Positions 6,679-25,263 of a DNA stretch of 59,595 nt are shown piece by piece. The stretch comes from Myxococcota bacterium (GTDB lineage: Bacteria > Myxococcota > B64-G9). Every line of letters starts with the position of its first letter. Position 1 is the first letter of the stretch. The position numbers and the translations under genes are program-made. The notes below the pieces were generated by a model. It made no database searches. It was given only the letters and a program-made list of their open reading frames with translations, and had not been told where the DNA came from. The stretch is taken from assembly GCA_041560255.1 (NCBI GenBank), contig JBFFBT010000002.1, forward strand, positions 1 through 59,595. The letters are read 5' to 3'.

Positions 6679-6698
6679 GGCCACAAGGAGGAATACAT

Positions 6699-10244: not shown

Positions 10245-10409
10245 ATGACATATAGAATATCAATAGACAATGATGATTCCTATGGCGCATCTATTTCAAA
10301 CCAAGAGGACTACGGTAATCATTTCAGTGAAAGAAACCATGGGCATCAACTCCGCTTTGTCTACCCTGTATGGTTTGTATATGGACATGACACAGGAGTT
10401 GATTTATGA
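10245..10409 (+). CDS. Hypothetical 54-aa protein (below the ORF-track size cutoff)
   Basis: ATG 10245 lies 8 nt after GAGGGG (10231-10236). Translation: MTYRISIDNDDSYGASISNQEDYGNHFSERNHGHQLRFVYPVWFVYGHDTGVDL. Its TGA (10407-10409) overlaps the thioesterase ATG (10406) in an ATGA coupling. Confidence 0.3.
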   Translation: MTYRISIDNDDSYGASISNQEDYGNHFSERNHGHQLRFVYPVWFVYGHDTGVDL

Positions 10410-11197
10410 ACGAGTTGTCAAGACGAGGTAATTTATTGAATTATGGTCCATGGTTTTTTGTCCCTGGATCGCCCTTCTTTCAACTTCGGTTGTTTTGTTT
10501 TACGTACGCCGGAGGTAGTTGTAATTTCTACTGTTTCTGGGCAAAACGGTTTCTTGGACGAATAGAGTTATGGGCATTTCAACCGCCTGGCCGTGGTAAT
10601 CGAATGAAGGAAAAGCCCATCCGACGACTCGATGAGTTGGTCGAGGTTATTGTGACATCTATCGATGGTTTCCTAGACTTGCCATTTGTGTTTTTTGGAC
10701 ACAGCCTGGGCTCCCTGATTGCTTTTGAGCTGACTCGACGATTGCGCCTGCGCAATGCAAGACTGCCAGAGCACTTGTTTGTCTCGGCATGTTCTGCACC
10801 ACATTTGGCTCGCAAGCGAAAATCCATACATCTATTGGGTGACGAGGAACTCATTGAATGTATACGAAGCTATGGAGGTACACCTCAGGAAGTGATTGGT
10901 GATCCCGAAATGCTGAAGCTTGTATTACCACTTATCAGGGCCGATTTTGAAGTCTATGAAACATGGAACTATTGTCATGAGACTCCTCTTTCAGTTCCAA
11001 TTACGGTTTTTGGTGGTACTGAGGATGAAATAGCAACAACTGATCTAGCCGCATGGCGTGAGCAGACAAATGTTAAATTTTCAAAGCATATGCTGCCAGG
11101 TGGCCATTTTTTCATTCATTCTGCCGAAAAGCAACTGATTGATATTCTCCAGATGGAAATGAGTGTTTACACAGCCGATATAAAAATCGATAGGTAA
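10406..11197 (+). CDS. Type II (editing) thioesterase
   Basis: RLFCFTYAGGS near the N-terminus, nucleophile elbow GHSLGS, C-terminal GGHFF. About 260 aa, typical of GrsT/TEII proteins in NRPS clusters. Confidence 0.9.
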   Translation: MNELSRRGNLLNYGPWFFVPGSPFFQLRLFCFTYAGGSCNFYCFWAKRFLGRIELWAFQPPGRGNRMKEKPIRRLDELVEVIVTSIDGFLDLPFVFFGHSLGSLIAFELTRRLRLRNARLPEHLFVSACSAPHLARKRKSIHLLGDEELIECIRSYGGTPQEVIGDPEMLKLVLPLIRADFEVYETWNYCHETPLSVPITVFGGTEDEIATTDLAAWREQTNVKFSKHMLPGGHFFIHSAEKQLIDILQMEMSVYTADIKIDR

Positions 11198-11241
11198 ACA
11201 AGACACAACGACCGCCATTAATAAAAGGAAGGAGGTAGTCA

Positions 11242-11496
11242 ATGAGTTATTCAGAAGAAGATACAGCCGTTTACAATGTTGTAGTAAATCACGAAGAGCA
11301 ATATTCGATCTGGCCTGATTACAAAGATATTCCGAATGGTTGGCGTGCAGTTGGTAGAAAAGGCACCAAAGAAGAGTGTCTAGCCTACATTGATCAGGTA
11401 TGGTCGGACATGCGGCCGCTCAGCCTACGCAAACGTATGGAAGAAATGAAATCAGCAACATCAGATTCGCGTTTGGATAAAGATAATCAAAAATAG
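11242..11496 (+). CDS. MbtH-like protein
   Basis: VVVNHEEQYSIWPDYKDIPNGWRAVGRKGTKEECLAYIDQVWSDMRPLSLR carries the three conserved Trp of the MbtH signature. SD GGAGG lies upstream. Confidence 0.93.
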   Translation: MSYSEEDTAVYNVVVNHEEQYSIWPDYKDIPNGWRAVGRKGTKEECLAYIDQVWSDMRPLSLRKRMEEMKSATSDSRLDKDNQK

Positions 11497-11892
11497 AAAA
11501 CGCGATCGAAGTTCTCTGTACTCATCCAACAGATTGCATCTTGGTAGTATCCATTCGGTTGGCGCTATTGATGAATATGATTAGAACAATAAAATTAGTT
11601 CTAGGTTTTATCTCGTCAAATCAGAACTCTTGTTTGATGGAATTGATGTTGATGTTTTGAATTCCGAAAAATAACAATTTTTGTTACTTTTTCATTCGAT
11701 CAATATCATTATCATTGTTGTCCAAAATAAATTGAGATGCATGATTATTACGAAACAACTTGTTGAAATTGAAGCATGTCATGATGACAAAGAATTGTGA
11801 CTCTGAAAACCTATTTTGGACAAGCGTGGATTAATATCATCCTTTTTTCGAAATGATTTTAGGTTGTGTTGATATGCACTTTTTAGCTATTC

Positions 11893-11937
11893 AAGGAGGT
11901 GTTTTACATGTATAGATATGTAAATAGAAAATATTAA
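11893..11937 (+). promoter_or_regulatory. Strong Shine-Dalgarno plus 9-codon mini-ORF (MYRYVNRKY) in the AT-rich leader of the downstream PLP-enzyme gene
   Basis: AAGGAGG at 11893-11899. ATG at 11908, 8 nt later. TAA at 11935-11937, which is 37 nt before the ATG at 11975. Confidence 0.3.
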
Positions 11938-11974
11938 GTGTTTTTACAAAATAGTTGAAACACATAGACTGAAA

Positions 11975-13255
11975 ATGGGTAGTGGGATAAAAAGGCGGAT
12001 ATTACTTCTTATATTTTGTTTCGGGGCTGCTGCTGTCATATGGTTTAAGCCCTCCGATATTGGTGGTCCTTATCCTAAGAAGTTTGCTATGTGGAACGAG
12101 AGGTTACGCAGACAATCTCTGGGTGGTGATGTAGCAATTTTGGACTTGGATGCTGTTGACCGAAATATCGAGCTCGTACGTAAAAAAGTCGATCGACGAT
12201 TTGCTTTGCGATTGGTTACCAAATCACTTCCTTCGAAAAACCTCATTAGATATCTGATGGATAAATTGGATACAACGAGACTTATGGTCTTTTCGGAGAG
12301 AAACCTGGTTACCCTGCTTGGTTTGGAGGAACCAATCGATATCATGCTTGGAGTGCCGCTTCCGGTTGCAACGGCCCATAAAATACTGAAGTCAAAACCT
12401 TTAGCTGAGCAGGTAAAATGGTTGATCGATACGCCACGGAGATTGAACGAATATCTTGCGGTTGCATTGCAGATGGATATCAAGCTGAACATCGTCATTG
12501 AGATCGATGTTGGACTGAGAAAGGGAGGGGTCGAGAGCCACAAAGAGCTATGCAAACTGCTTCAGATAATTACAGAAAATCCACAAGAATTGTCTTTTTG
12601 CGGACTGATGGGCTACGATGGCCATGTTCCATTTGCACCATTTTTTATCAGTGAAGATGGTGAGTTTCAAGAAGTACACGAGCGGTACAAGCAAATGGTG
12701 AAGGCTTCTAGGTCTGCATTTCCACGGATTTTTCATTCTGGATTGGTGTTTAATAGCGGAGGCAGTCGGACATATGTTCGTTACGACGCAAGTTTGGTGA
12801 ATACACCGGTGAACGATATTGCATTGGGATCGGTTTTTCTCGCACCTAATTCATTTGATGAACTCATTAACATCGGACATCGACCGGCATCTTTTTTGGC
12901 TTCCGTGGTGCTTAAGAAAAAAACCAGGGGTAAAACTTCTTTTGTCGAGTCGATACAAGACGTTATGGCGATTTGGAATCCTAACCTCCGAGTTTCTTAT
13001 CATTTACAAAGGGGTGGGTTTCCGGGTAAGGTGATCGCGCCGCCCGGGTTGGTGGATAATCCATTGATTCGTAGATCTTCTGGTATTCGAGGGCTTTTCT
13101 GCAATCAGCAGCTTTTATGTGGATCAACCAGTATACGTTTGGAAGAAGGTGATTTTGTGTTTTTTCATCCATGGGAGGCAGATGGATTGCTTTGGTTGGA
13201 CAATATACATGTATTCCGGGGAAGCAGCCTGCTTGATCAATGGAAGACCATTTGA
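11975..13255 (+). CDS. Fold-type III PLP enzyme (alanine-racemase-N-domain / DSD1-like), N-terminally membrane-anchored
   Basis: N-terminal TM segment RRILLLIFCFGAAAVIWF. Barrel-like pattern with candidate PLP Lys in RLVTKSLPS, IEIDVGLRKGG and GLMGYDGH. C-terminal EEGDFVFFHP resembles the small beta-domain of the family. Assignment is by motif only. Confidence 0.6.
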   Translation: MGSGIKRRILLLIFCFGAAAVIWFKPSDIGGPYPKKFAMWNERLRRQSLGGDVAILDLDAVDRNIELVRKKVDRRFALRLVTKSLPSKNLIRYLMDKLDTTRLMVFSERNLVTLLGLEEPIDIMLGVPLPVATAHKILKSKPLAEQVKWLIDTPRRLNEYLAVALQMDIKLNIVIEIDVGLRKGGVESHKELCKLLQIITENPQELSFCGLMGYDGHVPFAPFFISEDGEFQEVHERYKQMVKASRSAFPRIFHSGLVFNSGGSRTYVRYDASLVNTPVNDIALGSVFLAPNSFDELINIGHRPASFLASVVLKKKTRGKTSFVESIQDVMAIWNPNLRVSYHLQRGGFPGKVIAPPGLVDNPLIRRSSGIRGLFCNQQLLCGSTSIRLEEGDFVFFHPWEADGLLWLDNIHVFRGSSLLDQWKTI

Positions 13256-13330
13256 AGATCCGAACGTACTCCTCATGGTTTTTTCAACGGTGTATCCAAA
13301 AAACGCAGTGGGTTTAAATCAGTCTCGAAA

Positions 13331-13564
13331 CTAGGTTTCTTTATCCGGATTGTCTTGTCCCTGGGATGTGGCGGCAATTTCTTCCGGATCGTTTTGATCT
13401 GGCTTTTCGAGGGCGGCTTTCTTTTGAGCATCGATCTCCCGTAAGCGTTTTTGGATCCGATCGAGTTCTTTTGAGCGTTTGTCTTTACTTTTCTGCATTT
13501 CGACCAGGTAGTAGCCGATGGGTATGACAAATATCAAAACGACAATCCATAACAACATCCGCAT
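13331..13564 (-). CDS. Small single-pass membrane protein with a charged coiled tail (hypothetical)
   Basis: 77 aa: MRMLLWIVVLIFVIPIGYYLV followed by a K/E/D-rich tail. No family recognised. Confidence 0.4.
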   Translation of the reverse strand: MRMLLWIVVLIFVIPIGYYLVEMQKSKDKRSKELDRIQKRLREIDAQKKAALEKPDQNDPEEIAATSQGQDNPDKET

Positions 13565-13715
13565 GCTCCTTTCAGGTTGCTTGATCGTAGGCGGTTTTTG
13601 CCAGGCTTGTCACGTAAAAAGCGGTTTTTGATCATCACCATTGAAAGCCGGATTTTTCTCGCATACATTGTCCATGGTCGTTTGGTTGGATAAAAATCCC
13701 GCCCAAGGAGATGCT

Positions 13716-14825
13716 ATGTTTACAACCCCGACACTTTTGTTGGATGAGGCCAAATGCAAAGCCAACATTCAAAGAATGGCTGAAAAAGCCCAAAAGCACC
13801 ATATCGGCTTCAGGCCGCATTTTAAAACCCATCAATCCCTGGATGTCGGTCAATGGTTCAAGCAGGCCGGTGTGACCCAGATCACGGTATCGTCTTTCGA
13901 GATGGCCCATTATTTCTCTTCTCAATGGAAGGATATCACGGTTGCCTTCCCGGTCAATGTTTTGGAGATTGATAGGATCAACGCATTGGCAAAAAGGATC
14001 AAGCTCAATGTGTTGGTCGAATCCCTAGAAAGCGTCGATTTTCTCAAAACTCACCTGGATGCCGAGATTGGATTTTTTATCAAGATCGATGTGGGATACC
14101 ATCGTACCGGAGTCCAGCCTGACGACACCGATCTGTTGGACACAATACTGCAGGCGGCCGATGGGGCGGACCGATTGCGTTTCTGCGGTTTTTTAGGACA
14201 TGCCGGCCATGCTTACAAGTGTACCCACAGGGATGATGTCATGGCGATACATAAACAGAGTCAACAAATCATGATCGCACTGAAAAAAAGATATAACGAG
14301 CGCTATCCCGGATTGGCGATCTCGTTGGGAGATACGCCTACCTGCAGCCTGGCGGATGATTTTACGGGCATTGACGAGATTCGTCCGGGCAACTTTGCTT
14401 TATATGATCTCATGCAGCATCAGATCGGATCGTGTGAAATCGAAAACATTGCTGTGGCGATGAGGTGCCCGATTGTGGCCCTGCATCCCGAGCGCCGCGA
14501 CATGGTGATCTACGGCGGGGGAGTTCACTTTTCCAAAGAACAGTTGAAAACCCTCCAGGATACAGTAGTGTTCGGCCGGGTGGTCGAATCATTGGACAGT
14601 GGGGGATGGGGCGATGTGGTCAAAGACATGTATGTAAAAAACCTGTCTCAAGAGCATGGGATTGTAACGGGTCCGACGGTGGAGCTACAAAAGTACAAGG
14701 TTGGAGACCGAATCACGGTATTACCCGTGCATGCTTGTTTGACGGCCGATTTGATGAAACGGTATGTTTTGACGGGCGATCTCGAGGCCATCTTCATGAT
14801 GGGCTCCAAACACCAATGTCTTTGA
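13716..14825 (+). CDS. D-TA/DSD1-family fold-type III PLP enzyme (D-serine dehydratase / D-threonine aldolase-like)
   Basis: GFRPHFKTHQS (PLP-Lys motif), IKIDVGYHRTG, GFLGHAGH, and C-terminal GDRITVLPVHACLT. ATG 13716 lies 5 nt after AAGGAG (13705-13710) and is preferred over the track start at 13641. Confidence 0.8.
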   Translation: MFTTPTLLLDEAKCKANIQRMAEKAQKHHIGFRPHFKTHQSLDVGQWFKQAGVTQITVSSFEMAHYFSSQWKDITVAFPVNVLEIDRINALAKRIKLNVLVESLESVDFLKTHLDAEIGFFIKIDVGYHRTGVQPDDTDLLDTILQAADGADRLRFCGFLGHAGHAYKCTHRDDVMAIHKQSQQIMIALKKRYNERYPGLAISLGDTPTCSLADDFTGIDEIRPGNFALYDLMQHQIGSCEIENIAVAMRCPIVALHPERRDMVIYGGGVHFSKEQLKTLQDTVVFGRVVESLDSGGWGDVVKDMYVKNLSQEHGIVTGPTVELQKYKVGDRITVLPVHACLTADLMKRYVLTGDLEAIFMMGSKHQCL

Positions 14826-14873: not shown

Positions 14874-15683
14874 CTATATCCTGACCAGCGTGATGCACAA
14901 ATTGTGCTTATTCAAGATCGTCCACCAAACCGGGATGGTTTGTTGCCTGATCACGGCTTGGATTTGGTTCCAACGGTTGCCGGGTTGAGATACGTCCTCA
15001 TTGGGGATCAACCGGATGATTTTGGTGTTTTCCATCAGGCCGGTTTTGATGGCTTTCAGGATGGACTCTTTGGCGCTCCATATGAGGGTGGCGGTCAAGG
15101 CTTGGTGGGGGCTTGCTTGTGATTGAATCCAATTCCGTTCTTCGGGGGTATAAAAGTCTTCCAACATGGATGCGTTTTTGGGCGCTATGATCTCGATGTC
15201 GGCTCCCAGGTTGCCAAGGTTGTCGCGGCAAACGGCCGAAAAAGCCAACTCATCCCTATGGGAGATGGTCAGGGATACGGGTAGGTTTCGGCCGTGTCTG
15301 TCTTGTAGCTGCGGCCAGCCGTTGGGATTTCTGAGGATCTCGAAATCATTGGATGCTTGGATCGAAAGGTCGAGGGGAGTTGCGCGTTGCATGAGCAAAT
15401 ACTTGGCGGTCGCCCTGCCCAGCATCCATTGACGATGGCGTTCCGGGTGCCGATAGCGACGCCCGGATTGAATTTCTGTTGCGGTGAGATAACAACCCGA
15501 GGCAAGCCCGGGTCCGGCTTGGGTCAACACCCAATGGATATCGTCCGGCGGGTCGTTCGGGGTGGCTTCCGGGTGATGCTCTAGGATGGTGACTGCCGCT
15601 TGTAGAGCATTGTCGATACCACCGATCGGGTGATTCACCCGATCGGTGGCTTCGAGCAGGTTCGGTTTATACGATTTGGACAT
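14874..15683 (-). CDS. Sfp-type 4'-phosphopantetheinyl transferase
   Basis: LGADIEII and WSAKESILKA motifs. ATG 15683 (MSKSYKPN...) lies 1 nt after the PKS stop. The longer track ORF to 15911 would overlap the PKS C-terminus. Confidence 0.88.
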   Translation of the reverse strand: MSKSYKPNLLEATDRVNHPIGGIDNALQAAVTILEHHPEATPNDPPDDIHWVLTQAGPGLASGCYLTATEIQSGRRYRHPERHRQWMLGRATAKYLLMQRATPLDLSIQASNDFEILRNPNGWPQLQDRHGRNLPVSLTISHRDELAFSAVCRDNLGNLGADIEIIAPKNASMLEDFYTPEERNWIQSQASPHQALTATLIWSAKESILKAIKTGLMENTKIIRLIPNEDVSQPGNRWNQIQAVIRQQTIPVWWTILNKHNLCITLVRI

Positions 15684-15684: not shown

Positions 15685-18600
15685 CTATTTGTTTTCGGAT
15701 TCGGGCACCAGCTCTTTGCGGACGTCTTCGGGTAACTTGTTGGGCAGCGGCGAGGTTTGGTATCCGTTGAGCTCCAAAAGCACAAATCCGCGCTCGTCCA
15801 CGACCTGGATGCCGTATTGGGTATGACCGTTGATCCGCTCGGGCACCACCCAGGCAGCGATTCTGCCCGTAGTCCCTTCGGGCAGCTTGTGCAACTTGAG
15901 CTTACGAACACCCGCCGGCAGGCCGAGCTTTTGGCTCTTTTGAGCTTCTACGATTCCGGCTGCCTGGAATGCCAACTCGGTAAACATGGGATGTGCAGAC
16001 AGTTCGCCCGGATTGGCCATGGGAGGCACCTCCGTACCGGACTGCATCCAGCCGGCCATACGTCCGTCTTGGCTCTGAGTTACCTTTTCGAGCACCTGGA
16101 AGCTGGGTCCGTGGAAGTATGCTTGGTAAATGGCTTCCTTACGAATACCTTTGCTGATTCCGTCTCCGGGAGGCTCGGTCTTGACGATCACCGAGTCTTG
16201 ATCCAATCGGATTTTTCCGTGGAAGTGTCTGGTCACCTGGACTTTACCCACCACCAAATTGCGTTGGGTTTCCATGGTGGCAAGAAACACTCTGCCCAGA
16301 TCATCCCAAGTGGGCAGCAGCCTTACTGTAGCAGTTCGAGGCTCGTTTCGGTAAAACTTGAGAGGAGCTTCAAACGCCAAATCTTCTACCTCCACCACGG
16401 CAAGATCCGGACGTAGGAGGCTGGCTGCTTCGGCGAAGGTTTCCACCGCCATGACGCCCGGTAATACCGCCGTACCGTCGATGCGGTGATCCTCGAGAAA
16501 ACGATCCCGATTTGGATCGAAGGTCACTTCGAGCCTGAGACCGTCTGCGATGGTCCAGTCGATTGCTTTTCCGAGCAATGGGTATCGTGCGGGATTTTCG
16601 GCGAGCCGATCATGGAGTATCTGTAGGTCGGCGCCTTCCGCCACCAGTCCTTTGTACAGGATTCCCAAAGAGCGGGCGACAACCAGCTCTCCACTGAAAC
16701 CCGATGCAAATACGCGCCGGACCGAGGTGCAGCCTTCCTCGAGCGGGATCAAATTGATGCCGGCCGCGGCCAGCTGCGCCGGTACCGAGCCGCGTGTCGC
16801 CATGCCTCGCCCGGCCCATCCACTATATGCCAGGGTAAATACCTGCAAGCCCGGGCGGGCCTTTTTGAGATAGGTCGAACACTTGCTCATAAAATCATTG
16901 GCCGCCGAGTAATCCGTTTGTCCCAGGTTTCCAAATCTGCCTGCCACCGATCCGAACAGCATCAATCCTTTGAGCGCAACATTGGTGGTTGCAGCCAAGA
17001 GAGTGTTCAAGCCGATCGATTTCACTCCAAAGATGAGATCAAATGATTCTGGTTTTTTGCGGGCAATACCCTGGCTGTGTTCCAATCCGGCAGCGTGCAT
17101 AATGAGGTCGATACGCCCGTGCGCCTGCATAATCTTGTTGATGGCTTCATCGACAGCTTGTTGGTTCGTGACATCCAGGCTTACGTGATGGGCCTGTGCG
17201 CCGGTGTTGCGGATGGTGTGTAGCGCTTCGAGCGCGGCGCTTTTTCTTTCCACTTCTCGGATGGCTTTGTCCACCAACACCGGAGTCACCCGTTCGCCCT
17301 GTTCACGAAGCCGGTTCGTGAGGTTGGCTTTCAAGGTCTCCCGATCGGTGGTGAGCAGTATAATGTCCGGATCATCATTGGAAGGAGTCGGGGTGAGATC
17401 CGCCAAATAATAGGTACCGCCTATGTTTTTTGCAAGATCCGTAACGATTTTACCAACGATGTCGCCTGCGCCTCCGGTAACCAAAACCACGGGATCTTTT
17501 TCCGGAAGGCTGCCGATTCCGGATAACGCCTGGTCGGCTTCAATGGGCTTGTATTCGCTCAAACCCACCGCCCAACGACGTTCACCGACTCTGCCTACTT
17601 CAACAACACCTCGGTCGCTTTCAACTTCTTCAATCAGGGCGGAAGCTATGGTTTGTGCTTCGGCGTCGACCGGGAAATCGACGACTTTACATAAAGTCTC
17701 CGGCCACTCTTGGGCCAAGGTTTTGACAAACCCGGTGGTGGCGCCGCTGGCGGGATCCTGCGAGCCTACTCCGGGCCGCAATCCGAGATGGCCTCCCATT
17801 TGGGTGGCGGCTACAAAATAGGTGCCCGGTTGGTTGGACAGCACTCCGTCGAGTGCTTTGGCGACCCTAAACGGAAGGCGCGCGCGCAAATCGAGTGCTC
17901 GTTTCCATGCGGCTTTATCCCGGGTTTCCGGCAAGACCGCTTTTTGGCAAGCCGTAAGCAGCCAAACACCTTTGGGCGCCTGTTGGGAGGCAAGCTCGGC
18001 GATTTGCGAGGTCACCGAATCCGGGTCACCGGACGCGTCGATCCATACGGGCTGGGCACCTCGGTGTTTGAGTGCGGATTCGAGCGCCTGGACTACGGGT
18101 GATGGTTCGGACACGATGAAACATTGGCTTCGTACTTCCACGCCGGTCGGCAGACAGTCGCCGGCTGCCGGCCTTCCCACCAGTACAGAGGCAAGATAAC
18201 GCACCGATTCGGATTCGACCGGAATGCTGGATAAGGGCAACACGTGGTCTTCACCCGCTTCCTCTTCGGTTGCATCCTGAGATTCGGCCATTGGAGTGTT
18301 TTGGGCTTGGGCGGTTTGGGCTTGGGTGGCGTGCGCGGCCGATTTTTCCTCCGCAAAACGGATGATGTGAGCCAGGGTGGGATAATCCGAAAGCTTGAGA
18401 TCATCCTGTTTTGGGATGTTGAAAGAAGTCCTGATCTCCGAAAACAGCTCGGCCTGTTTGACCGTGTCGATGCCCAGGTCGGCTTCCAGGTCGAGGTTGA
18501 CGTCCAACATGTCGGAGGGATAGCCGGTTTTTTCAGAGACGAGAGAAAGGATCTTAGCTGTGATGTCATCGAGGCTCATCTGCGAAGGCACCTGGACGGG

Positions 18601-21600
18601 AGCCTGAGCAGGCGGCGCTACCACGGCCGTTTGGGAGACGGGTTGCACCTGTTCTGGCTGAGCTGTCTGGGCTGCCTCCGGTTGTATAGCTGTGGCTGCC
18701 GGTTGAGGTCGGGATACTTCGGGCTCTACATCTTTTGTTTTTGGCGCGGGCGCAACCACGCCTTGCCGGGCTATGAGCTCGGATTTGGTTGCGGGCGCGG
18801 ATTCGATGAATGCATCATCGCTTTTTACTCTCAAGGTGTTGTGGATCACTTCCAGCTCGGCTTGGGGTTGGTTCGCAATCCCTTCGATCCAAGCTTGGTA
18901 CACGGCCTGATCATGAATACGGCTTGCGCCGTTTTCGATTCTCTCTGAGACGGTCATGGCCACCTGAGATCCGAATCCGGCCGACAATCGCACCGCATAG
19001 CGGACATTTTGCCGGCCTCCTTTTGACAGGTTGAGTTTTCCCAAATCCGGGTCTTCTTCTCGATGGTTGGGGATGGGCGGGATGACTTGGCGCTCCAACA
19101 TCCGTACGCCCAAAGCATCTTCGATGCCCACACCCATGGGGTGACCGGTGTATCCCTTGGTATTGGCGATCACAATATCGTTCACCTGTTGCCCGAACGT
19201 CTTCCGTAACGCATGTACTTCAGCCGCCGCGCTGCCGCCGCGGGCAGGAGTGTAGGTTTCATGCGAGATGAAGACGGTTTCCTTGGCCATCTGGGTTCTG
19301 TCTATACCGTAGTCGGTTTCGACCTGTTTGATCATGTTATCCATGCAGTTGCTGATGTGATCCACGTCCAGGCGCGTGCCGTGGAAAGCGCTGTTTGCAA
19401 TCACGGTGCCTAAAATCCTGGTCAAGCCATGCATACCCCGTTTTTTGGTCTCTTGTGCGTCCTCTACGACCAAACCGACTGCGCCCATGCCGGTAATCAT
19501 ACCGTTTCTTCGCCGATCGAAAGGAATGGCGGCCTTGGTGAGATCGGATTCGTTGGTTACCGCTCCGGTGGCGAACAATCCGCCAACCAGCCAAGGAGCC
19601 AGGTTTTCGTTGGTGATATCGTCCGATCCGACCACCAAGACTCTGCGGCAACGGCCCAATCGGATCCAGTCGGTAGCCAGAGCGAGGGCCAATGTGGTCG
19701 AAGCGCATGCGCTGTTGACACCGACATTCGGTCCCCGGGCTCCGATCAGCTCGGCCAATTGGGCATGTCCCATGTTGAGCGCCCGGAAGATAAATTTGCG
19801 ATCCAAGCTGAAAGGCTCACCACGCTCTTGTTCGAGCGCTTCGATTCTTTCGCGTATGGCGTGCAAAGGTCCGATGCTGTCGGCCAGGTGTTTGAGCTCC
19901 GCAATGCGTGACGCGTAAATCTCGTCTCGGTTGTACCGGTTGATTTCTTGTACGAACTGATCGTATCCAGGGAAAGCCGATGCGAAGATGATACCGGTTT
20001 CATCGGCGATTTGGGCCGGAAGCCTAAATCCGATCGGCAACTTTTTGCCCGAAGATACGGTCTTGTGGTTCATGACCAAAGGAATTCCGGCATCTTTGAG
20101 AGCCAGCAACCCGGCGCCGATGGCCAATTGGGTGGTGATGTCCAAGCTGCGGACTTTTTCGTCCGGAATACCGAACTCTTGTGTCAGATCGAAACGCCCC
20201 CTGCGGGCCGAAAGCCGCACTACTTGATCGGGGTCGTCGATCACTTCGAAATAGGGTCCGCCCGGCGCATCTTTGATGAGTCGTACGATTCGTTGGCCTG
20301 CCAAACGCCGGCGGTTTTCCTCCGGGATACTATCGATGCCGATGGCTCCGTTGAGGATGTTGTCGATGTTGGCGTCGTCGAACACGGCATGATTGGTGCC
20401 CGGCAGACCGAGGCTGGCTCCACTGATGACCAAATCGACAGGCTTAGCTTTGGTTTGAGGCTCGGATACCGGCTCGATGGATGGAATCGATACCTGCGCC
20501 GCGGGCGGGTTGCTCTGCATGCTTCCCAGGGTTTTGCAGGCCGCCAAGGAGTTACAGAATGACGGCCAATCTCCGACTTTCGGATTGTTGGTGCATACCG
20601 ATATGACCCTCGGATCATCCAAAACATCCAACACCAGGTTGGCCAGCACCCTTTTGGCGCCCACTTCAACGAACAACCGCACACCGACTTTGTGCATTTC
20701 CTGCAGGGTCTCGACGAAACGAACCGGAGACGCCACTTGTTTGGCCAAACGATCCAGATTGGCCGAGATGGCGCTGGGACTTGGATCGTAGGGTTTTGCG
20801 TCCAGGTTGGCAATCAGCGGTATGCGCGGGGGGTGAAAATCAATCTTGGCCAGTAACGCCCGCAGTGGTTTGGTTGCGGGTGCCACAATATGCGAATGAA
20901 AAGCATGGGATACCTGCAGTTGAACCGCACGAATTCCCTTGTCCTTGAAACGCGCCATGGCTTCGTCCATGGCGACCGTGCCGCCGGCGATAACGGTTTG
21001 GTTGTGGCTGTTGAAATTGGCGGGCGCTACGTCTTGGATGTCTTGAATGACCTCCATGATTTTATCCAGCGGTGCAAGGACGGCAGCCATTTTACCGGGA
21101 TCCCGAACGTTGACGGAAGACATCTCTCTTGCCCGGGCGCTGGCTGCATGGATGGCTTCTTTAAATGACAGCATACCGGCTACCACCAGGGCGGAGTATT
21201 CACCCAGGCTGTGTCCTGCTACCATATCCGGGACCACTCCGTGATGTTCGAGCAACCTTGCGATGGCGATATCCGCCGCCAGCATGGCGGGCTGGCAGAT
21301 GTTGGTGTCCCTGAGCTTCTCGACGTTTTCGGGCGTATCGTCGGTGTAAATATAATCGGTCAGAGGCTTGCCCAAGAGGGGTGCCATGTATTCGTCGGCT
21401 TCAGCGAAGGTATCGGCCACGATCGGTTCGGTGGCCCGAAGCTCTTTGAGCATATCGATATACTGCGAACCTTGACCCGGTAGCAAGAATGCGATCTTGA
21501 CCGGATCCGAATCACGGTAAAAAACCCCTTGGGCCGCCATGGCGCGCCAGGGTTTGTATCCATCCGATGCGAGAGCCACAAGTGCGCGTTTACCACGTTC

Positions 21601-23268
21601 TTGCCGCTCGGTTTCGCTTCCGTATTCGATGACCAGACATTGGGGTTTCGAACGCACCTCGTCCTGAGGTGTCTCGGGATCTTGCTCGCCTAAAGCCGCC
21701 AATTTCGCTTCCAGGGCCTTTCGGATTTCTTCCCGGTTGTTGCCGCCGACTGCAAGCATGCGGCGATCGGGACGGTTGGTTTGCATCTCAACAGAAGAAG
21801 TTTGCATGTTGTTGCCTTTCGGGACGTCGAATACCTTGGATTTGTTTCCATTGGGTCGGTATTCGGTAAGCAATGCATGAAAATTGGTACCACCAAATCC
21901 AAACGAGGATACGGCAGCGGTTCTGGGGGTGCCGTTATGTAATTCCCACGGAACGGCCTGGGTGGGTACATACAGAGGAGAATCGTCAAAAGGAATGTTT
22001 GGATTCGGGGTTTCAAAATTGATCGATCCCGGAATGGTTTTGGTGCTGAGGGCAAAAACGGTTTTCAACAAAGAAGCCGCGCCCGCAGCGCTTTTGAGGT
22101 GACCGATTTGGGACTTGATGGACCCCATGGCGATGGATTTGTTTTTGGCTCCGGCGGCCTTGAAGAACTCGTTCGCCAAATTACCTTCCACCCGGTCTCC
22201 CGCGATGGTCGAGGTCCCGTGGGCCTCCAGCAAGGTGACGTCACAAGGGGAGATTCCGGCGCTCTCATAGGCGCGGCGCATGGCCAGGCGTTGCCCTTCC
22301 GGGTTGGGGGCGGTGATGCCTTTGCCCTTGCCGTCGCTGGAGCTGCCGATACTTTTCAGTACGGCATAAATCTTGTCACCGTCTCTTTCAGCGTCTTCCA
22401 AACGTTTCAACAAGAGGATTCCGCAACCTTCACCCATCACGAACCCATTGGCGCGTTTGTCGAACGGACAGCTGAGATCTCCGGACAGCGCGCCGATCTT
22501 GCAGAACTTGACGAAGCTGTGGGGTGACATGGAGGAATCCGAGCCGCCGGTAAGCACCATGTCATAGCGATGTTCAATCAAGCCGGTTACTGCCATTTCT
22601 AAGGCGGCCAATGATGACGCGCAGGCAGCGTCCGCAGTGTAGTTGGGTCCCCTGAGTCCGAAAACATTGGCAACCCGCCCGGCGATGACATTGGATAACT
22701 CACCGGGCATGCTGTCTTCAGTAATGGGAGGCAGCTCTTCGATGACGGTCGTGGTAAACTCTTTGATGATTCGATTTCCAGCTTCTTCGGAAAGAGCTTG
22801 AAATGCCGGGGTTGATTTGAGCTGTCGAATATAGCGGGGAAGATAAACCCGGTGATTGGTAATAAACTGCAACTCACCCGCCATGGCATTGCCGATGATG
22901 ACGGCCATGCGATCGCGATCGAACTCTTTTTGATCGTATTGGGCGTCCTGGATGGCTTGGCGCGAAGCTTCGACCGCCCATTTTTGAACGTTGTCCATGG
23001 ACTGGGATGTCTTTGGAGGAATACGGTATTTCAAACAATCGAATTGGAAGTCGGTGATCCAGGATCCGATTTTGGAATAGGTCTTGTCCGGCGCCTTGGG
23101 ATCAGGATCATAATGATCTTCCGTTTTCCATCGGTTTTCAGGTACTTCCCGGATACTGTTTTTGCCTGAAAGGATGTTTTGCCAGAAACTCTTGGCGTCA
23201 TTGGCGTCGGGCATTACAGCGCCCAGTCCGATTATCGCCACTCCTGTGTGGTTGTTTTTCGTACTCAT
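15685..23268 (-). CDS. Type I polyketide/secondary-lipid synthase, single polypeptide KS-AT-KS-ACP-KR-DH (PfaA-like KS1)
   Basis: RBS GGAG at 23275-23278 and ATG at 23268. Residue numbers below follow the 2535-aa track translation. KS1 aa 17-478 (nt 21859-23244): DAACASS Cys224, EAHGTST, GHLKSAAG, and a PfaA-style PGELSNVIAGRVANVF segment. AT aa 598-890 (nt 20623-21501): GHSLGE, HAFH. KS2 aa 952-1452 (nt 18937-20439): NSACAST with Cys codon 19705-19707, SHETYTP, GHPMGVG. A P/A/Q-rich linker follows. ACP-like aa 1573-1650 (nt 18343-18576): DLGIDTVKQAEL. KR (nt 16798-17496): TGGAGDIVG, YSAAN. PKS-type DH (nt 15748-16575): LEDHRIDGTAVLPG, YFHGPSFQ. Stop TAG at 15685-15687. No TE or R domain. Confidence 0.95.
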   Translation of the reverse strand: MSTKNNHTGVAIIGLGAVMPDANDAKSFWQNILSGKNSIREVPENRWKTEDHYDPDPKAPDKTYSKIGSWITDFQFDCLKYRIPPKTSQSMDNVQKWAVEASRQAIQDAQYDQKEFDRDRMAVIIGNAMAGELQFITNHRVYLPRYIRQLKSTPAFQALSEEAGNRIIKEFTTTVIEELPPITEDSMPGELSNVIAGRVANVFGLRGPNYTADAACASSLAALEMAVTGLIEHRYDMVLTGGSDSSMSPHSFVKFCKIGALSGDLSCPFDKRANGFVMGEGCGILLLKRLEDAERDGDKIYAVLKSIGSSSDGKGKGITAPNPEGQRLAMRRAYESAGISPCDVTLLEAHGTSTIAGDRVEGNLANEFFKAAGAKNKSIAMGSIKSQIGHLKSAAGAASLLKTVFALSTKTIPGSINFETPNPNIPFDDSPLYVPTQAVPWELHNGTPRTAAVSSFGFGGTNFHALLTEYRPNGNKSKVFDVPKGNNMQTSSVEMQTNRPDRRMLAVGGNNREEIRKALEAKLAALGEQDPETPQDEVRSKPQCLVIEYGSETERQERGKRALVALASDGYKPWRAMAAQGVFYRDSDPVKIAFLLPGQGSQYIDMLKELRATEPIVADTFAEADEYMAPLLGKPLTDYIYTDDTPENVEKLRDTNICQPAMLAADIAIARLLEHHGVVPDMVAGHSLGEYSALVVAGMLSFKEAIHAASARAREMSSVNVRDPGKMAAVLAPLDKIMEVIQDIQDVAPANFNSHNQTVIAGGTVAMDEAMARFKDKGIRAVQLQVSHAFHSHIVAPATKPLRALLAKIDFHPPRIPLIANLDAKPYDPSPSAISANLDRLAKQVASPVRFVETLQEMHKVGVRLFVEVGAKRVLANLVLDVLDDPRVISVCTNNPKVGDWPSFCNSLAACKTLGSMQSNPPAAQVSIPSIEPVSEPQTKAKPVDLVISGASLGLPGTNHAVFDDANIDNILNGAIGIDSIPEENRRRLAGQRIVRLIKDAPGGPYFEVIDDPDQVVRLSARRGRFDLTQEFGIPDEKVRSLDITTQLAIGAGLLALKDAGIPLVMNHKTVSSGKKLPIGFRLPAQIADETGIIFASAFPGYDQFVQEINRYNRDEIYASRIAELKHLADSIGPLHAIRERIEALEQERGEPFSLDRKFIFRALNMGHAQLAELIGARGPNVGVNSACASTTLALALATDWIRLGRCRRVLVVGSDDITNENLAPWLVGGLFATGAVTNESDLTKAAIPFDRRRNGMITGMGAVGLVVEDAQETKKRGMHGLTRILGTVIANSAFHGTRLDVDHISNCMDNMIKQVETDYGIDRTQMAKETVFISHETYTPARGGSAAAEVHALRKTFGQQVNDIVIANTKGYTGHPMGVGIEDALGVRMLERQVIPPIPNHREEDPDLGKLNLSKGGRQNVRYAVRLSAGFGSQVAMTVSERIENGASRIHDQAVYQAWIEGIANQPQAELEVIHNTLRVKSDDAFIESAPATKSELIARQGVVAPAPKTKDVEPEVSRPQPAATAIQPEAAQTAQPEQVQPVSQTAVVAPPAQAPVQVPSQMSLDDITAKILSLVSEKTGYPSDMLDVNLDLEADLGIDTVKQAELFSEIRTSFNIPKQDDLKLSDYPTLAHIIRFAEEKSAAHATQAQTAQAQNTPMAESQDATEEEAGEDHVLPLSSIPVESESVRYLASVLVGRPAAGDCLPTGVEVRSQCFIVSEPSPVVQALESALKHRGAQPVWIDASGDPDSVTSQIAELASQQAPKGVWLLTACQKAVLPETRDKAAWKRALDLRARLPFRVAKALDGVLSNQPGTYFVAATQMGGHLGLRPGVGSQDPASGATTGFVKTLAQEWPETLCKVVDFPVDAEAQTIASALIEEVESDRGVVEVGRVGERRWAVGLSEYKPIEADQALSGIGSLPEKDPVVLVTGGAGDIVGKIVTDLAKNIGGTYYLADLTPTPSNDDPDIILLTTDRETLKANLTNRLREQGERVTPVLVDKAIREVERKSAALEALHTIRNTGAQAHHVSLDVTNQQAVDEAINKIMQAHGRIDLIMHAAGLEHSQGIARKKPESFDLIFGVKSIGLNTLLAATTNVALKGLMLFGSVAGRFGNLGQTDYSAANDFMSKCSTYLKKARPGLQVFTLAYSGWAGRGMATRGSVPAQLAAAGINLIPLEEGCTSVRRVFASGFSGELVVARSLGILYKGLVAEGADLQILHDRLAENPARYPLLGKAIDWTIADGLRLEVTFDPNRDRFLEDHRIDGTAVLPGVMAVETFAEAASLLRPDLAVVEVEDLAFEAPLKFYRNEPRTATVRLLPTWDDLGRVFLATMETQRNLVVGKVQVTRHFHGKIRLDQDSVIVKTEPPGDGISKGIRKEAIYQAYFHGPSFQVLEKVTQSQDGRMAGWMQSGTEVPPMANPGELSAHPMFTELAFQAAGIVEAQKSQKLGLPAGVRKLKLHKLPEGTTGRIAAWVVPERINGHTQYGIQVVDERGFVLLELNGYQTSPLPNKLPEDVRKELVPESENK

Positions 23269-23278: not shown

Positions 23279-24931
23279 TCAATTCGTTGCAACGGTTTGT
23301 GCTACAGAGTTCAGGTCGTCAAGCATTCCAACCATGCAGTCGTTGATGCCGGTGAGATTGATGTTTTGTTCGAAACTCCTGAGTGAACCGTCGGTCAGCG
23401 GGCTCCCGTTTGCCTGGGCTCCTGCTGCCAAAAACATGCTTTGTGCGCTGATCTCTTGTGCGGTCTGCCGGGCCCAAAGGCGGCTCATGGATGTGAGTGT
23501 CTGGATATCATATCGGGATGAGTCCGGATTGCCCTTGGACACTTTACGGCAAAAGGATGCGGCCACTTCGAGATGCGCGATCAACAGCCCCAGGGTGAAC
23601 AACACATGCTGGTTGCGGGTCAGTTTGGCCTTACGGCAGACTTCCATGAATTCGGCGAGCGCCCAAGCGGCACGTGCACAGGTTTTGGCGCCCGTACCAG
23701 GGGTTTTTTGTTCCAATTCTTCCATCTCGCGGGCGAGATTTTTAAAGTGCTCGCCCCGGCTCAATAGATGGGATCGCCAGCGATCTTGAGCGATGGTGCG
23801 TTGGCATATTTCAGAAGTGCCTTCGTAGATGCAGGTGATACGAACGTCTCGTTTGAGCTTTTCCACTTCGTATGCGTTGATATATCCATAGCCTCCGTGG
23901 GCTTGGATGGCCGCTTCGGCGGCTGCATTGCCTGCTTCGGTGGCGGTCAATTTGGCCACCGCACCGTCTACGGCCAAATCCAAACCACCCTGGTCGAGTT
24001 GATCGGATACGAATTCGATATGAGACCGGGCGGCTTCGAGAGCCACCGCGTGCGGAGCAATGAGTTTATGGGTCCAACCGGGCTTTTCACACAGCAAAGA
24101 GCCTCCTTGGTAACGCTCTTTGCCGTAGAGAATGGCCTTATTCAACGCGCTGTTTCCACAACCCAAACCAAAGGCTGCTACCATGACCCGGGTGTAGCCG
24201 AAAACCTTGGCGGCCTGAGAAAGACCTTGTCCTTCGACTCCACCGATGAGGTTTTCCACCGGGATGCGGACGCTCTCTAATGATATCGGGGTTGTATTGG
24301 ATGCCCGGATTCCGTGTTTGACCTCATGCGCGCCCGGAACGAATCCCTCGGTGCCGCGTTCGACCACAAAAAACGAGGGGCCTCCGGGTGTTACCGCCAG
24401 AACCGTATACAAATCGGCAATGCCTCCGTTGGTGATGAACTGTTTGTTGCCGTTGATTTCATAGGCTACGGTTTTGCCGTTTTCGATTATCGGATTGGCC
24501 TTGGTGCGGATGTGGGCCAGGTCGGAGCCGGCCGAAGGTTCCGTCACCGCGTAAGCCACCACCAGGCCCTCCTCTGCGACTCTTCTCATCCAGCGGTTTT
24601 TTTGCTCTTCGGTTCCGCCAACCCGCAAGGGATCGGTTCCGAGAGATACGCCCAACAAGGAAGTTGCGATACCAAGGTCTACCGATGCGACAGCTTCTGA
24701 AATCCTGAATATATCTTTGGCCCCTCCGCCCAAACCTCCATATGCGGTGGGTATAAAAGCCAAGTGTATGCCGATCTCGGGGCCCAGTAACTCTCGGATG
24801 AGATCCTCGGGGCAGTTGTCTTCATGATCGTTGCCGAGAAGGGTGTCGAGATCCATACGGCGTTTGGCGAAACTTTTCAGGGTGGATAGAATGAGCTCGA
24901 GCTCTTCTTGACTCATTTCTGGTTGTATCAT
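23279..24931 (-). CDS. Acyl-CoA dehydrogenase, long form with a C-terminal helical extension of roughly 170 aa
   Basis: AVTEPSAGSDL and IYEGTSEICQRTIA (catalytic Glu context). ATG 24931 (MIQPEMSQ...) lies 9 nt after AGGAGG (complement of 24941-24946). The track start at 25135 adds an implausible basic leader. Stop TGA at 23279-23281, 10 nt before the PKS ATG. Confidence 0.88.
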   Translation of the reverse strand: MIQPEMSQEELELILSTLKSFAKRRMDLDTLLGNDHEDNCPEDLIRELLGPEIGIHLAFIPTAYGGLGGGAKDIFRISEAVASVDLGIATSLLGVSLGTDPLRVGGTEEQKNRWMRRVAEEGLVVAYAVTEPSAGSDLAHIRTKANPIIENGKTVAYEINGNKQFITNGGIADLYTVLAVTPGGPSFFVVERGTEGFVPGAHEVKHGIRASNTTPISLESVRIPVENLIGGVEGQGLSQAAKVFGYTRVMVAAFGLGCGNSALNKAILYGKERYQGGSLLCEKPGWTHKLIAPHAVALEAARSHIEFVSDQLDQGGLDLAVDGAVAKLTATEAGNAAAEAAIQAHGGYGYINAYEVEKLKRDVRITCIYEGTSEICQRTIAQDRWRSHLLSRGEHFKNLAREMEELEQKTPGTGAKTCARAAWALAEFMEVCRKAKLTRNQHVLFTLGLLIAHLEVAASFCRKVSKGNPDSSRYDIQTLTSMSRLWARQTAQEISAQSMFLAAGAQANGSPLTDGSLRSFEQNINLTGINDCMVGMLDDLNSVAQTVATN

Positions 24932-25263
24932 TTGATTGTGCCTCCTAAGTTTGTTTGAACATTCAGCTCGATTGCGCTCCAATCGGCTGAGTTTTGTATG
25001 CGATTGATTCGATTCGGGGTGAATTCTGAGTGTGCCGTGTATTGCGTCATAGTATTTCCTCTGCCTTCCCCGATAAGATATGTATCTTTCTCGCTTCCCA
25101 TGTGGGTGCATCCCTAGATGCAAATACCTTGCCAAATTTGTAACTTATTGATTTGTATGATTGTAATTGTGCGTCATGAAGAGTTTAGCTCAGAACATGC
25201 CAATAAAAGTGCGTATTTGATTTTGCTGGTGCAAGCAGCAAAGATCGGCAGTTGTACAAAAAT

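What the first reader, a model, noticed from the sequence alone, without database searches (positions are those of the whole stretch)
18343..18576. The only carrier domain of the PKS has Thr where the phosphopantetheinylated Ser should be
Seen in sequence:
- The helix-II motif reads DLEADLGIDTVKQAELF.
- The codon at 18463-18465 (minus strand) is ACG, which is Thr. This was verified by hand from the plus-strand text ...accgtgtcgatgcc...

Established knowledge:
- ACP/PCP domains carry the 4'-phosphopantetheine arm on the Ser of (D/H/N)S(L/I).
- The NRPS PCP and the free ACP in this same window both have that Ser.

There is no second carrier domain in the synthase, yet a dedicated PPTase is translationally coupled to it. 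I see three possibilities. Thr may be modified, which I do not know to be established chemistry. The domain may be a non-covalent or structural carrier with a discrete ACP encoded elsewhere. Or the locus may be inactivated by a single T/A-to-A/T change (TCG <-> ACG).
Basis: partly seen in the sequence, partly recalled or inferred. Interest (0 to 1): 0.68.

Follow-up and report, generated by a model that had tools for sequence, protein, structure and literature searches.

The report
Carrier domains with threonine, not serine
The threonine at the cofactor-attachment site of this synthase's carrier domain is not a mutation or sequencing error but an invariant feature of a large, multi-phylum enzyme family that always travels with its own cofactor-loading enzyme, so the cofactor arm is probably attached to threonine, a chemistry I could not find described.

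Summary
The 2527-aa synthase (23268→15685, minus strand) has one carrier domain (PF00550). Its helix-II motif reads DLEADLGIDTVKQAELF, with ACG (Thr1602) at 18463-18465.

The pseudogene or sequencing-error reading is refuted:
- All 120 listed protein homologues carry Thr at this site.
- All 257 motif copies in 82 related genomic loci carry Thr, using all four Thr codons and no Ser codon.
- The loci span Myxococcota, Chloroflexota, Acidobacteriota, Actinomycetota, Gemmatimonadota, Verrucomicrobiota, Calditrichota and an archaeon.

The domain has no other conserved Ser or Cys. An AlphaFold model (pLDDT 86) is a canonical ACP fold in which helix II starts at the Thr.

An Sfp-type PPTase with intact catalytic motifs follows the synthase in most loci long enough to show it. 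Related PfaA-type domains carry Ser at the same column, so motif-intact copies alternate only between Ser and Thr.

The family matches the "Type R secondary lipid synthase" cluster of Shulse & Allen (2011). Its product is unknown and the paper does not mention the Thr.

Best explanation (about 0.65): Thr is the phosphopantetheine acceptor, loaded by the cluster's own PPTase. This is inferred and needs mass spectrometry.

The parts
23279..25135 (-). Acyl-CoA dehydrogenase-family gene (618-aa ORF as listed). It is the first gene of the operon and the proposed trans-acting enoyl reductase.
   Evidence: Pfam Acyl-CoA_dh_N/M/1. Its TGA stop lies 10 nt before the synthase ATG, with GGAG between them. 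A homologue lies immediately upstream of the synthase in most related loci.
15685..23268 (-). Synthase of 2527 aa: KS1-AT-KS'-ACP(Thr)-KR-DH.
   Evidence: Pfam. The best NCBIfam match is the PfaA subfamily, below its cut-off. Start and stop were read.
21832..23241 (-). KS1 domain (active-site DAACASS, EAHGTST, GHLKSAAG).
   Evidence: PF00109/PF02801; motifs located.
20578..21489 (-). Acyltransferase domain (GHSLGE).
   Evidence: PF00698, 161.7 bits.
18814..20451 (-). Second ketosynthase-like domain KS' (the 'CLF' of Shulse & Allen). It retains Cys (NSACAST), His (SHETYTP) and His (TGHPMG).
   Evidence: Weak PF00109, PF08545 and PF00108 hits. C254, H402 and H442 are invariant in the 29-sequence alignment A1..
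18355..18555 (-). Carrier (ACP) domain with Thr at the attachment position.
   Evidence: PF00550, 21.8 bits. AlphaFold model pLDDT 86 with helix II beginning at the Thr. Foldseek to solved ACPs gives TM 0.76/0.89 and rmsd 1.5 A.
18463..18465 (-). ACG codon for Thr1602, at the position of the pantetheinylated Ser.
   Evidence: The site is invariant Thr in 257 of 257 copies in 82 loci, with codons ACG 116, ACC 112, ACT 16 and ACA 13.
16816..17322 (-). Ketoreductase domain.
   Evidence: PF08659, 79.6 bits.
15733..16581 (-). PKS-type dehydratase domain.
   Evidence: PF21089 and PF14765.
14874..15683 (-). Sfp-type 4'-phosphopantetheinyl transferase of 269 aa. Its start lies 1 nt after the synthase stop.
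   Evidence: PF01648, 57.4 bits; HetI model 42.5 bits, below its cut-off. The motifs LGADIE and WSAKESILKA are present. G, D, E, W, K, E and K are invariant in 41 cluster-linked PPTases, a set selected by the presence of these two motifs.

Best explanation
The Thr is the native 4'-phosphopantetheine acceptor of this carrier domain. The operon (acyl-CoA dehydrogenase, then KS-AT-KS'-ACP-KR-DH synthase, then PPTase) is a minimal member of a very widespread, uncharacterised family of iterative fatty-acid/polyketide-like synthases. This is the 'Type R secondary lipid synthase' architecture.

In this family every functional carrier copy reads LDLEADLG(I/V)DTVKQAE. The cluster's own Sfp-type PPTase transfers the phosphopantetheine arm from CoA onto the Thr hydroxyl at the N-terminus of helix II. 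This is the same reaction ordinary PPTases perform on Ser. The holo-domain then shuttles malonyl and acyl thioesters between AT, the two ketosynthases, KR and DH, and probably the adjacent acyl-CoA-dehydrogenase-like enzyme acting as enoyl reductase.

Shown here:
- The Thr is at the Ser position of a canonical ACP fold.
- The Thr is invariant under purifying selection across phyla.
- A catalytically intact PPTase co-occurs with the synthase.
- Motif-intact copies alternate only between Ser and Thr at this column.

Inferred:
- The covalent modification itself.
- That the cognate PPTase is specialised for Thr.
- The enoyl-reductase role of the dehydrogenase.
For: 1. Position. phmmer aligns the Thr with the pantetheinylated Ser of solved ACPs. 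In the AlphaFold model (pLDDT 86) helix II spans residues 46-60 and T46 is its first residue. The best Foldseek matches are all ACPs.

2. Selection. All 120 listed homologues carry DTVKQ, often in 2-6 tandem copies. In the 82 loci analysed (80 kept from that scan plus two from protein look-ups), 257 of 257 motif copies have Thr, using all four Thr codons and no Ser codon.

3. No alternative nucleophile. No Ser, Cys or other candidate column is conserved in 257 unique domain sequences. The invariant residues are T25, Y27, D45, T46, V47, K48, Q49, A50, E51, R57 and T75.

4. Partner enzyme. A PPTase homologue follows the synthase, directly or after an acetyl-CoA carboxylase gene, in most loci long enough to show it. 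Its Mg-binding GxDxE and catalytic WSxKE(A/S)xxK motifs are invariant in 41 copies selected by those motifs. In the window it is 1 nt from the synthase stop. A different T-type architecture (L093) also has a PPTase next door.

5. No other carrier. No further ACP-like ORF was found in 82 loci, at a sensitivity that does detect the window's own free ACP. Pfam tables of L001, L002 and L091 list none.

6. Ser/Thr-only alternation. Among the top 147 representative proteins, 94 are all-Thr and 33 all-Ser; the all-Ser group includes a tandem array with the classical PfaA-type motif LGIDSIKRVEIL. P0211 reads S,T,T. P0209 has the same KS-AT-KS'-ACPn-KR-DH architecture with Ser. Most of the copies with another residue at the site that were inspected have also lost the VKQAE helix-II motif.
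Against: - No experiment shows phosphopantetheine on Thr in any protein that I could find.
- In E. coli, ACP S36T cannot be modified and is non-functional (PMC3340395), so Thr is not a generic PPTase substrate.
- The PF00550 score of the window's single domain is only just above the cut-off.
- One large T-type synthase (L094) shows no PPTase within 10 kb.
- The PPTase shows no clear-cut, well-sampled sequence signature of altered specificity. There is only a weak G-[A/C]-D tendency.
Confidence: 0.65

Rival explanations
1. The Thr domains are not pantetheinylated. They act as structural spacers, docking modules or non-covalent binders. The chemistry runs on CoA thioesters, which fits the acyl-CoA dehydrogenase neighbour, or on a discrete ACP encoded elsewhere. 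The PPTase would then serve that other carrier.
For: - Ser-to-Thr abolishes modification in E. coli ACP (PMC3340395).
- The conserved neighbour belongs to a family that normally uses acyl-CoA.
- The window contains a free Ser-ACP 8 kb away, at 6663-6992.
- L094 has no PPTase within 10 kb.
Against: - A structural role does not explain an invariant hydroxyl residue at the exact attachment column, with only Ser as an alternative.
- It does not explain arrays of up to six tandem copies, as in productive PUFA synthases.
- No free ACP was detected in the 82 related loci, so the PPTase would have no conserved in-cluster substrate.
- The window's free ACP belongs to a separate plus-strand NRPS-type cluster that is absent from the relatives.
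Confidence: 0.2
2. The Thr carries a different modification or a direct acyl ester. Examples are a CoA-derived group other than plain 4'-phosphopantetheine, or O-acyl intermediates. The neighbouring ACPS-family enzyme would install that group.
For: - The strict DTVKQAE signature differs from every canonical carrier motif.
- The cluster PPTases are remote from solved PPTases, with a best PDB E-value of 0.003.
Against: - The PPTase keeps the canonical Mg-binding and catalytic-base motifs of CoA-using PPTases.
- Homologous PfaA-type domains share the same surrounding motif with Ser; phosphopantetheine on Ser in classical PfaA ACPs rests on established knowledge, not tested here.
- Ketosynthase chemistry needs a thioester.
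Confidence: 0.08
3. The Thr is a private point mutation, sequencing error or pseudogene, as in the reader's third option.
For: ACG is one base from TCG.
Against: - Thr occurs in every one of about 520 motif-matching copies from more than 200 homologues and loci, encoded by four different codons.
- The ORF is intact over 2527 codons with all catalytic motifs.
Confidence: 0.01

Closest known systems
Type R secondary lipid synthase cluster (Shulse & Allen 2011, PMC3098273), reported in Koribacter versatilis, Solibacter usitatus, Elusimicrobium minutum and Roseiflexus
   Same: - One pfaA-like gene with KS-MAT-'CLF'-ACPn-KR, followed by a PPTase gene.
- An acetyl-CoA carboxylase gene sometimes lies between them. 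The same layout appears in the window and in the related loci.
- The product is unknown.
   Different: - The paper never mentions Ser or Thr.
- It calls the middle domain a chain-length factor, whereas that domain keeps an invariant Cys-His-His here.
- It reports 3-6 ACPs; the window has one.
- It does not describe the conserved upstream acyl-CoA dehydrogenase.
- I did not check the Thr in those named isolates.
Tandem ACP domains of PfaA in PUFA synthases (motif LGIDSIKRVEIL)
   Same: The domains are homologous. They share the frame KTGY..DM(I/L)..D.DLE.DLGID-x-(I/V)K..E, occur as tandem arrays after an AT domain and before KR-DH, and have a PPTase gene nearby.
   Different: - PfaA has Ser; this family has Thr.
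- PfaA lacks KS' and works with PfaB, PfaC and PfaD, which are not seen in the window.
- The TIGR02813 score of 895.5 is below the 1010.1 cut-off.
- Mean identity is 42% between Thr and Ser domains, against 66% among Thr domains.
E. coli AcpP S36T mutant
   Same: Thr replaces the attachment Ser at the N-terminus of helix II.
   Different: The engineered mutant cannot be pantetheinylated and cannot support growth (PMC3340395). Here Thr is the naturally selected state and is accompanied by a dedicated PPTase.
Sfp/HetI/PfaE-type (group II) phosphopantetheinyl transferases
   Same: - Two-lobed protein of about 230-270 aa.
- PF01648 match, plus GxDxE and W-S-x-K-E-(A/S)-x-x-K motifs.
- Encoded next to its synthase.
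   Different: - It is far below the HetI equivalog cut-off (42.5 against 370 bits) and barely detectable against solved PPTases.
- 34 of 41 cluster copies have Ala or Cys in G-x-D, where canonical enzymes have Ile or Val (from memory of the published motif). The two Ser-type sister clusters have Ile.

Membership tests
Carrier protein / PP-binding domain (PF00550) | Profile match above the curated threshold | tested here: met
   21.8 bits against a cut-off of 20.8 for the window's single copy. Tandem homologues score 101-111 bits.
Carrier protein / PP-binding domain (PF00550) | Small helical-bundle ACP fold, with the attachment residue at the N-terminus of helix II | tested here: met
   AlphaFold pLDDT 86 with helices at 10-25, 46-60 and 76-92; T46 begins helix II. 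Foldseek to T. maritima ACP gives TM 0.76/0.89 and rmsd 1.5 A.
Carrier protein / PP-binding domain (PF00550) | Ser in the (D/H/N)-S-(L/I/V) motif as phosphopantetheine acceptor | tested here: not met
   Thr in the window and in 257 of 257 copies in related loci.
Carrier protein / PP-binding domain (PF00550) | Covalent 4'-phosphopantetheine on the domain | not testable with these tools
   Requires mass spectrometry of the expressed protein.
Type R secondary lipid synthase (Shulse & Allen 2011) | Single pfaA-like gene with KS-MAT-(second KS-like)-ACPn-KR, with a PPTase gene downstream | tested here: met
   Domain order. The PPTase starts 1 nt downstream. The definition is read from PMC3098273. 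The ACP number is 1 rather than 3-6.
Type R secondary lipid synthase (Shulse & Allen 2011) | Proximal KS falls in the Type R clade of their KS tree | not tested
Relatives at 45-60% KS1-AT identity share the architecture.
PUFA synthase PfaA (TIGR02813) | Whole-protein score above the NCBIfam cut-off | tested here: not met
   895.5 against 1010.1 bits; the best stretch covers only KS-AT.
PUFA synthase PfaA (TIGR02813) | Partner genes pfaB, pfaC and pfaD in the cluster | tested here: not met
   The window's neighbours are an acyl-CoA dehydrogenase and a PPTase only. The flanks hold TPR, M23 peptidase and PLP enzymes.
Sfp-type PPTase (downstream gene) | PF01648 match plus the Mg-binding GxDxE and catalytic W/F-x-x-K-E-(A/S)-x-x-K motifs | tested here: met
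   57.4 bits. LGADIE and WSAKESILKA are present. Both motifs are invariant in the 41 cluster homologues, which were selected by their presence.
Sfp-type PPTase (downstream gene) | Transfers phosphopantetheine to the adjacent synthase's carrier | not testable with these tools
   Requires an in vitro or co-expression assay.

The most novel reading that the evidence does not exclude
O-(4'-phosphopantetheinyl)-threonine is a real, natural post-translational modification. It is used by a large, multi-phylum superfamily of fatty-acid/polyketide-like synthases. It is installed by a co-evolved PPTase clade and forms a carrier/PPTase pair orthogonal to the cell's Ser-based systems.
Probability: 0.55. 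Interest if true: 0.85.

Novelty: new variant of a known kind. Interest (0 to 1): 0.75.

Why it matters
The serine acceptor is treated as a universal rule of carrier-protein biochemistry. Annotation pipelines, PROSITE PS00012 and engineering work all assume it, and Ser-to-Thr is used as a 'dead' control in E. coli.

This family appears to break that rule systematically:
- 599 confirmed stretches in species-representative genomes.
- 4446 representative proteins match the domain profile at E<=1e-10, Ser-type relatives included.
- About two thirds of the best-matching proteins are all-Thr.

If Thr is loaded, three things follow. It adds a new modification to the catalogue. It predicts a PPTase clade with altered acceptor specificity, a potentially orthogonal tagging pair for biotechnology. 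It also gives a handle on a very common but product-unknown lipid or polyketide pathway of soil, sludge and sediment bacteria.

If Thr is not loaded, these would be megasynthases working without a covalent carrier, which would be at least as surprising.

Tried and rejected
- **Literature.** They covered motif strings (DTVKQAE, LGIDT and others), phrases for threonine phosphopantetheinylation, Thr-ACP, and the cluster's gene content. Nothing relevant turned up except Shulse & Allen 2011 and the E. coli S36T papers.
- **PROSITE PS00012 as a free-ACP detector in 82 loci.** It missed the window's own free ACP, so it is insensitive. I used an HMM with filters off instead.
- **Specificity determinants in the PPTase.** I compared Thr-type with Ser-type clusters but recovered only two Ser-type PPTases. 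The G-[A/C]-D tendency is therefore a lead, not a result. WS-A-KE is not discriminating, because the yeast FAS PPTase has it too.
- **First regex to read the site residue from HMM hits.** It picked up linker G-x-D matches and was discarded. It was replaced by an HMM-column read-out.
- **Context of the Ser-bearing Type-R-like synthase P0209.** The contig ends just after the gene, so its PPTase could not be seen.
- **Looking for a cultured carrier via long contigs.** P0039, P0085 and P0096 were all metagenome bins.
- **Not run.** A structure prediction of the PPTase: a monomer model would not decide acceptor specificity.
Full report
**1. The observation**

On the minus strand the window reads gac ctg ggc atc gac acg gtc, that is D-L-G-I-D-T-V. 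The ACG codon is at 18465-18463.

The enclosing ORF starts at ATG 23268 and stops at TAG 15687-15685, giving 2527 aa. Its Pfam domains run KS, AT, a second KS-like domain, one PP-binding domain, KR and a PKS-type DH. The PP-binding domain spans aa 1573-1639 of the query and scores 21.8 bits against a cut-off of 20.8. The Thr is residue 1602.

The gene upstream is an acyl-CoA dehydrogenase homologue. Its TGA lies 10 nt before the synthase ATG, with GGAG between them. The gene downstream is a PF01648 PPTase whose ATG lies 1 nt after the synthase stop.

The window's two other carriers have Ser. The NRPS PCP reads GGDSIL and the free ACP at 6663-6992 reads VNSL.

**2. Is the Thr really at the attachment position?**

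phmmer against all PDB sequences aligns DLGIDT with DLGADS, DLGVDS and DLGIDS of solved ACPs, Thr opposite the pantetheinylated Ser.

An AlphaFold model was built on an alignment of 28 family domains. It has mean pLDDT 86 and helices at 10-25, 46-60 and 76-92, so T46 is the first residue of helix II. Foldseek against the PDB returns only acyl carrier proteins at the top, the best with TM 0.76/0.89 and rmsd 1.5 A.

This fails. In 257 unique domain sequences no Ser or Cys column is conserved, and the family consensus there is FAAIRE. The invariant residues are T25, Y27, D45, T46, V47, K48, Q49, A50, E51, R57 and T75.

**3. Private mutation or family trait?**

I searched with KS' plus the ACP against the 5.8-billion-protein collection. 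This gave 761 hits at E<=1e-10. All 120 listed carry LDLEADLG(I/V)DTVKQAE, often in 2-6 tandem copies.

To avoid bias towards the motif, I then scanned the species-representative genome collection with an alignment of KS' only. The patterns used were NSA[FY]HG[TS]RL and SHET[YF]TPAR. The 80 loci kept span Myxococcota, Chloroflexota, Acidobacteriota, Actinomycetota, Gemmatimonadota, Verrucomicrobiota, Calditrichota and a Thermoplasmatota archaeon. The window's closest relative is an uncultured Myxococcales bin at 61% identity.

In these loci plus two others, a pattern that allows any residue at the site found 257 copies. All are Thr, encoded by ACG (116), ACC (112), ACT (16) and ACA (13), with no Ser codon. 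That is purifying selection for Thr. The pseudogene or sequencing-error reading is excluded.

**4. The conserved neighbourhood**

tblastn across the loci shows one layout almost everywhere the contig is long enough. An acyl-CoA dehydrogenase homologue comes first, then the synthase, then the PPTase. In many Acidobacteriota, Actinomycetota and Myxococcota a eukaryote-like single-chain acetyl-CoA carboxylase (about 1800-1900 aa) sits before the PPTase. An Fe-S/CCG protein and ETF beta/alpha often lie further upstream.

I then took the 41 cluster-linked PPTases that carry both catalytic motifs. In them the G, D and E of GxDxE and the W, K, E and K of W-S-x-K-E-(A/S)-x-x-K are invariant. The window's enzyme reads LGADIE and WSAKESILKA. 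The PPTase is therefore a maintained, apparently active enzyme.

An HMM search of all six-frame ORFs of the 82 loci, with filters off, found no carrier other than the Thr domains. The same search does detect the window's own free ACP. The Pfam tables of three loci agree. The only conserved in-cluster substrate for the PPTase is the Thr domain.

**5. Ser relatives and the pattern of substitution**

A metagenome scan for the Ser version (EADLG[IV]D-TCN-VKQAE) found only eight stretches. They lie in PfaA-like synthases in which the AT is followed directly by the Ser-ACPs, with no room for KS'. Several have related PPTases nearby. Their domains form a separate neighbour-joining clade. Identity is 66% among Thr domains and 42% between Thr and Ser domains.

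A profile of the Thr domain was searched against 1.84 billion representative proteins. It hit 7132 at E<=1e-3, 4446 at E<=1e-10 and 1637 at E<=1e-30. I read the site in the top 147:
- 94 proteins are all-Thr.
- 33 are all-Ser. These include a nine-ACP array with the classical PfaA-type motif LGIDSIKRVEIL.
- P0211 reads S,T,T.
- P0209 has the full KS-AT-KS'-ACPn-KR-DH architecture with Ser.
- Most of the inspected copies with another residue at the site have also lost the VKQAE helix-II motif and look like degenerate pseudo-domains; P0141's seventh copy (GIDAVKQ) keeps part of it.

Thr goes with KS' in almost every full-length protein, and Ser goes with its absence. Thr domains also occur in other mega-architectures:
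- KS-KS-AT-ACP4 with a PPTase next door (L093).
- A 4019-aa NMO-KS-KS-AT-KS'-ACP6-KR protein followed by biotin ligase, a single-chain carboxylase and BioY (L094).

A column that tolerates only the two hydroxyl amino acids is what an attachment site looks like. Its loss goes with decay of the recognition helix.

**6. Mechanism**

The most economical reading is that Thr1602 is the phosphopantetheine acceptor and that the cluster's PPTase loads it. The holo-domain would then serve AT, both ketosynthases, KR and DH in an iterative cycle. KS' keeps an invariant Cys-His-His and so is not a decarboxylase-type chain-length factor. The acyl-CoA-dehydrogenase homologue is the likely enoyl reductase, with ETF and the Fe-S protein as electron path where present. 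The carboxylase would supply malonyl-CoA.

Fold, position, selection, synteny and intact PPTase motifs are shown. The covalent modification, any Thr specialisation of the PPTase, and the reductase role are inferred.

Why Thr rather than Ser is open. Possibilities are insulation from the host's Ser-specific PPTases and hydrolases, greater resistance of a Thr phosphodiester to beta-elimination, or restriction of arm geometry. These are speculation and none was tested.

One weak lead: 34 of 41 cluster PPTases have Ala or Cys in G-x-D. The published canonical motif (from memory) and the two Ser-type sister enzymes have Ile or Val there.

**7. Against the best reading**

In E. coli, ACP S36T cannot be modified and cannot support growth (PMC3340395). 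No paper in the searchable library reports phosphopantetheine on Thr. The main rival is that these domains are not loaded and the chemistry runs on CoA esters or a remote ACP. It keeps about 0.2. It must explain away the conserved PPTase, the tandem arrays and the Ser/Thr-only column.

**8. Comparison with what is known**

The architecture matches the 'Type R' cluster of Shulse & Allen (2011). That cluster is KS-MAT-CLF-ACP(3-6)-KR plus a downstream PPTase, with an ACC gene between them in Koribacter, and its product is unknown. The paper contains neither 'serine' nor 'threonine'. I did not verify the Thr in its named isolates.

The synthase is not a PfaA by NCBIfam's cut-off (895.5 against 1010.1 bits) and lacks pfaB, pfaC and pfaD partners. 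The domain is a carrier domain by fold and profile but fails the defining Ser. It works like an ACP while being a variant of the kind.

**9. Verdict**

The finding is real and is not an artefact. It generalises from one codon to a family-wide rule. It is a new variant of a known kind, and the decisive experiment is simple. Interest 0.75.

Noticed in passing
window 18814-20451 (-); alignment A1: The middle KS-like domain, called a chain-length factor in the 2011 description of Type R clusters, keeps Cys (NSACAST), His (SHETYTP) and His (TGHPMG). These are invariant in 29 family members, so the synthase probably has two active ketosynthases.
   Followed up: partly
window 23279-25135 (-); L001, L002, L039, L046, L048, L054, L057, L072, L080, L082: An acyl-CoA-dehydrogenase homologue of about 560-620 aa precedes the synthase in most related loci. 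In several phyla an Fe-S/CCG protein, ETF beta/alpha and a eukaryote-like single-chain acetyl-CoA carboxylase join the cluster. This looks like a self-contained fatty-acid-type system with a flavin/ETF-linked enoyl reductase. The window has only the minimal three genes and no ETF or carboxylase.
   Followed up: partly
L083-L090; P0209 (L092); P0211: Ser-bearing sister domains with the same surrounding motif occur in PfaA-like synthases without KS'. One protein (P0209) has the full KS-AT-KS'-ACPn-KR-DH layout with Ser. P0211 mixes S,T,T. These are natural comparators for the Thr state.
   Followed up: partly
PPTase, window 15206-15220 (LGADIE); 41 cluster PPTases: The residue between Gly and the Mg-binding Asp is Ala (19), Cys (15), Val (4), Ile (2) or Leu (1) in Thr-type clusters. 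It is Ile in the two Ser-type sister PPTases. This may be a pocket-size correlate of Thr acceptance, but the sample is too small to say.
   Followed up: partly
P0156 / L094 10001-22060; P0212 / L093: Thr-type carriers also sit in other megasynthases. One is a 4019-aa NMO(ER)-KS-KS-AT-KS'-ACP6-KR protein followed by biotin ligase, a single-chain carboxylase and BioY. Another is a KS-KS-AT-ACP4 protein followed by a KS-KS-KR-DH protein and a PPTase.
   Followed up: no
P0150, P0170, P0204, P0218, P0224, P0228, P0233, P0235, P0255: Some family members carry extra Thr-type carrier copies in unusual places, before KS1 or between KS1 and AT. Others contain one degenerate pseudo-ACP copy that has lost the DTVKQAE motif (P0147, P0157, P0163, P0227, P0161).
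   Followed up: no
window 19-14825 (+): A separate plus-strand cluster lies here. It holds an NRPS (A-PCP-C-TE), an MFS transporter, a 3-hydroxyacyl-CoA dehydrogenase, a free Ser-ACP, an acyl-CoA dehydrogenase, an acyl-AMP ligase, a type II thioesterase and two alanine-racemase-fold PLP enzymes. It looks like a small lipo-amino-acid or lipopeptide pathway. It is not found next to the synthase in relatives.
   Followed up: partly
window 32425-33372 (-): This ORF combines a rhodanese domain with a match to the Somatomedin B domain (E 2.6e-8), a domain usually seen in animal extracellular proteins.
   Followed up: no
L001, L002, L091 and many P-hits: In long-read metagenome bins the synthase gene is split by the gene caller into several ORFs of 500-1300 aa, probably through frameshift errors. 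This is why all 120 listed protein hits are at most 1350 aa long although the intact gene encodes 2500-3300 aa.
   Followed up: no
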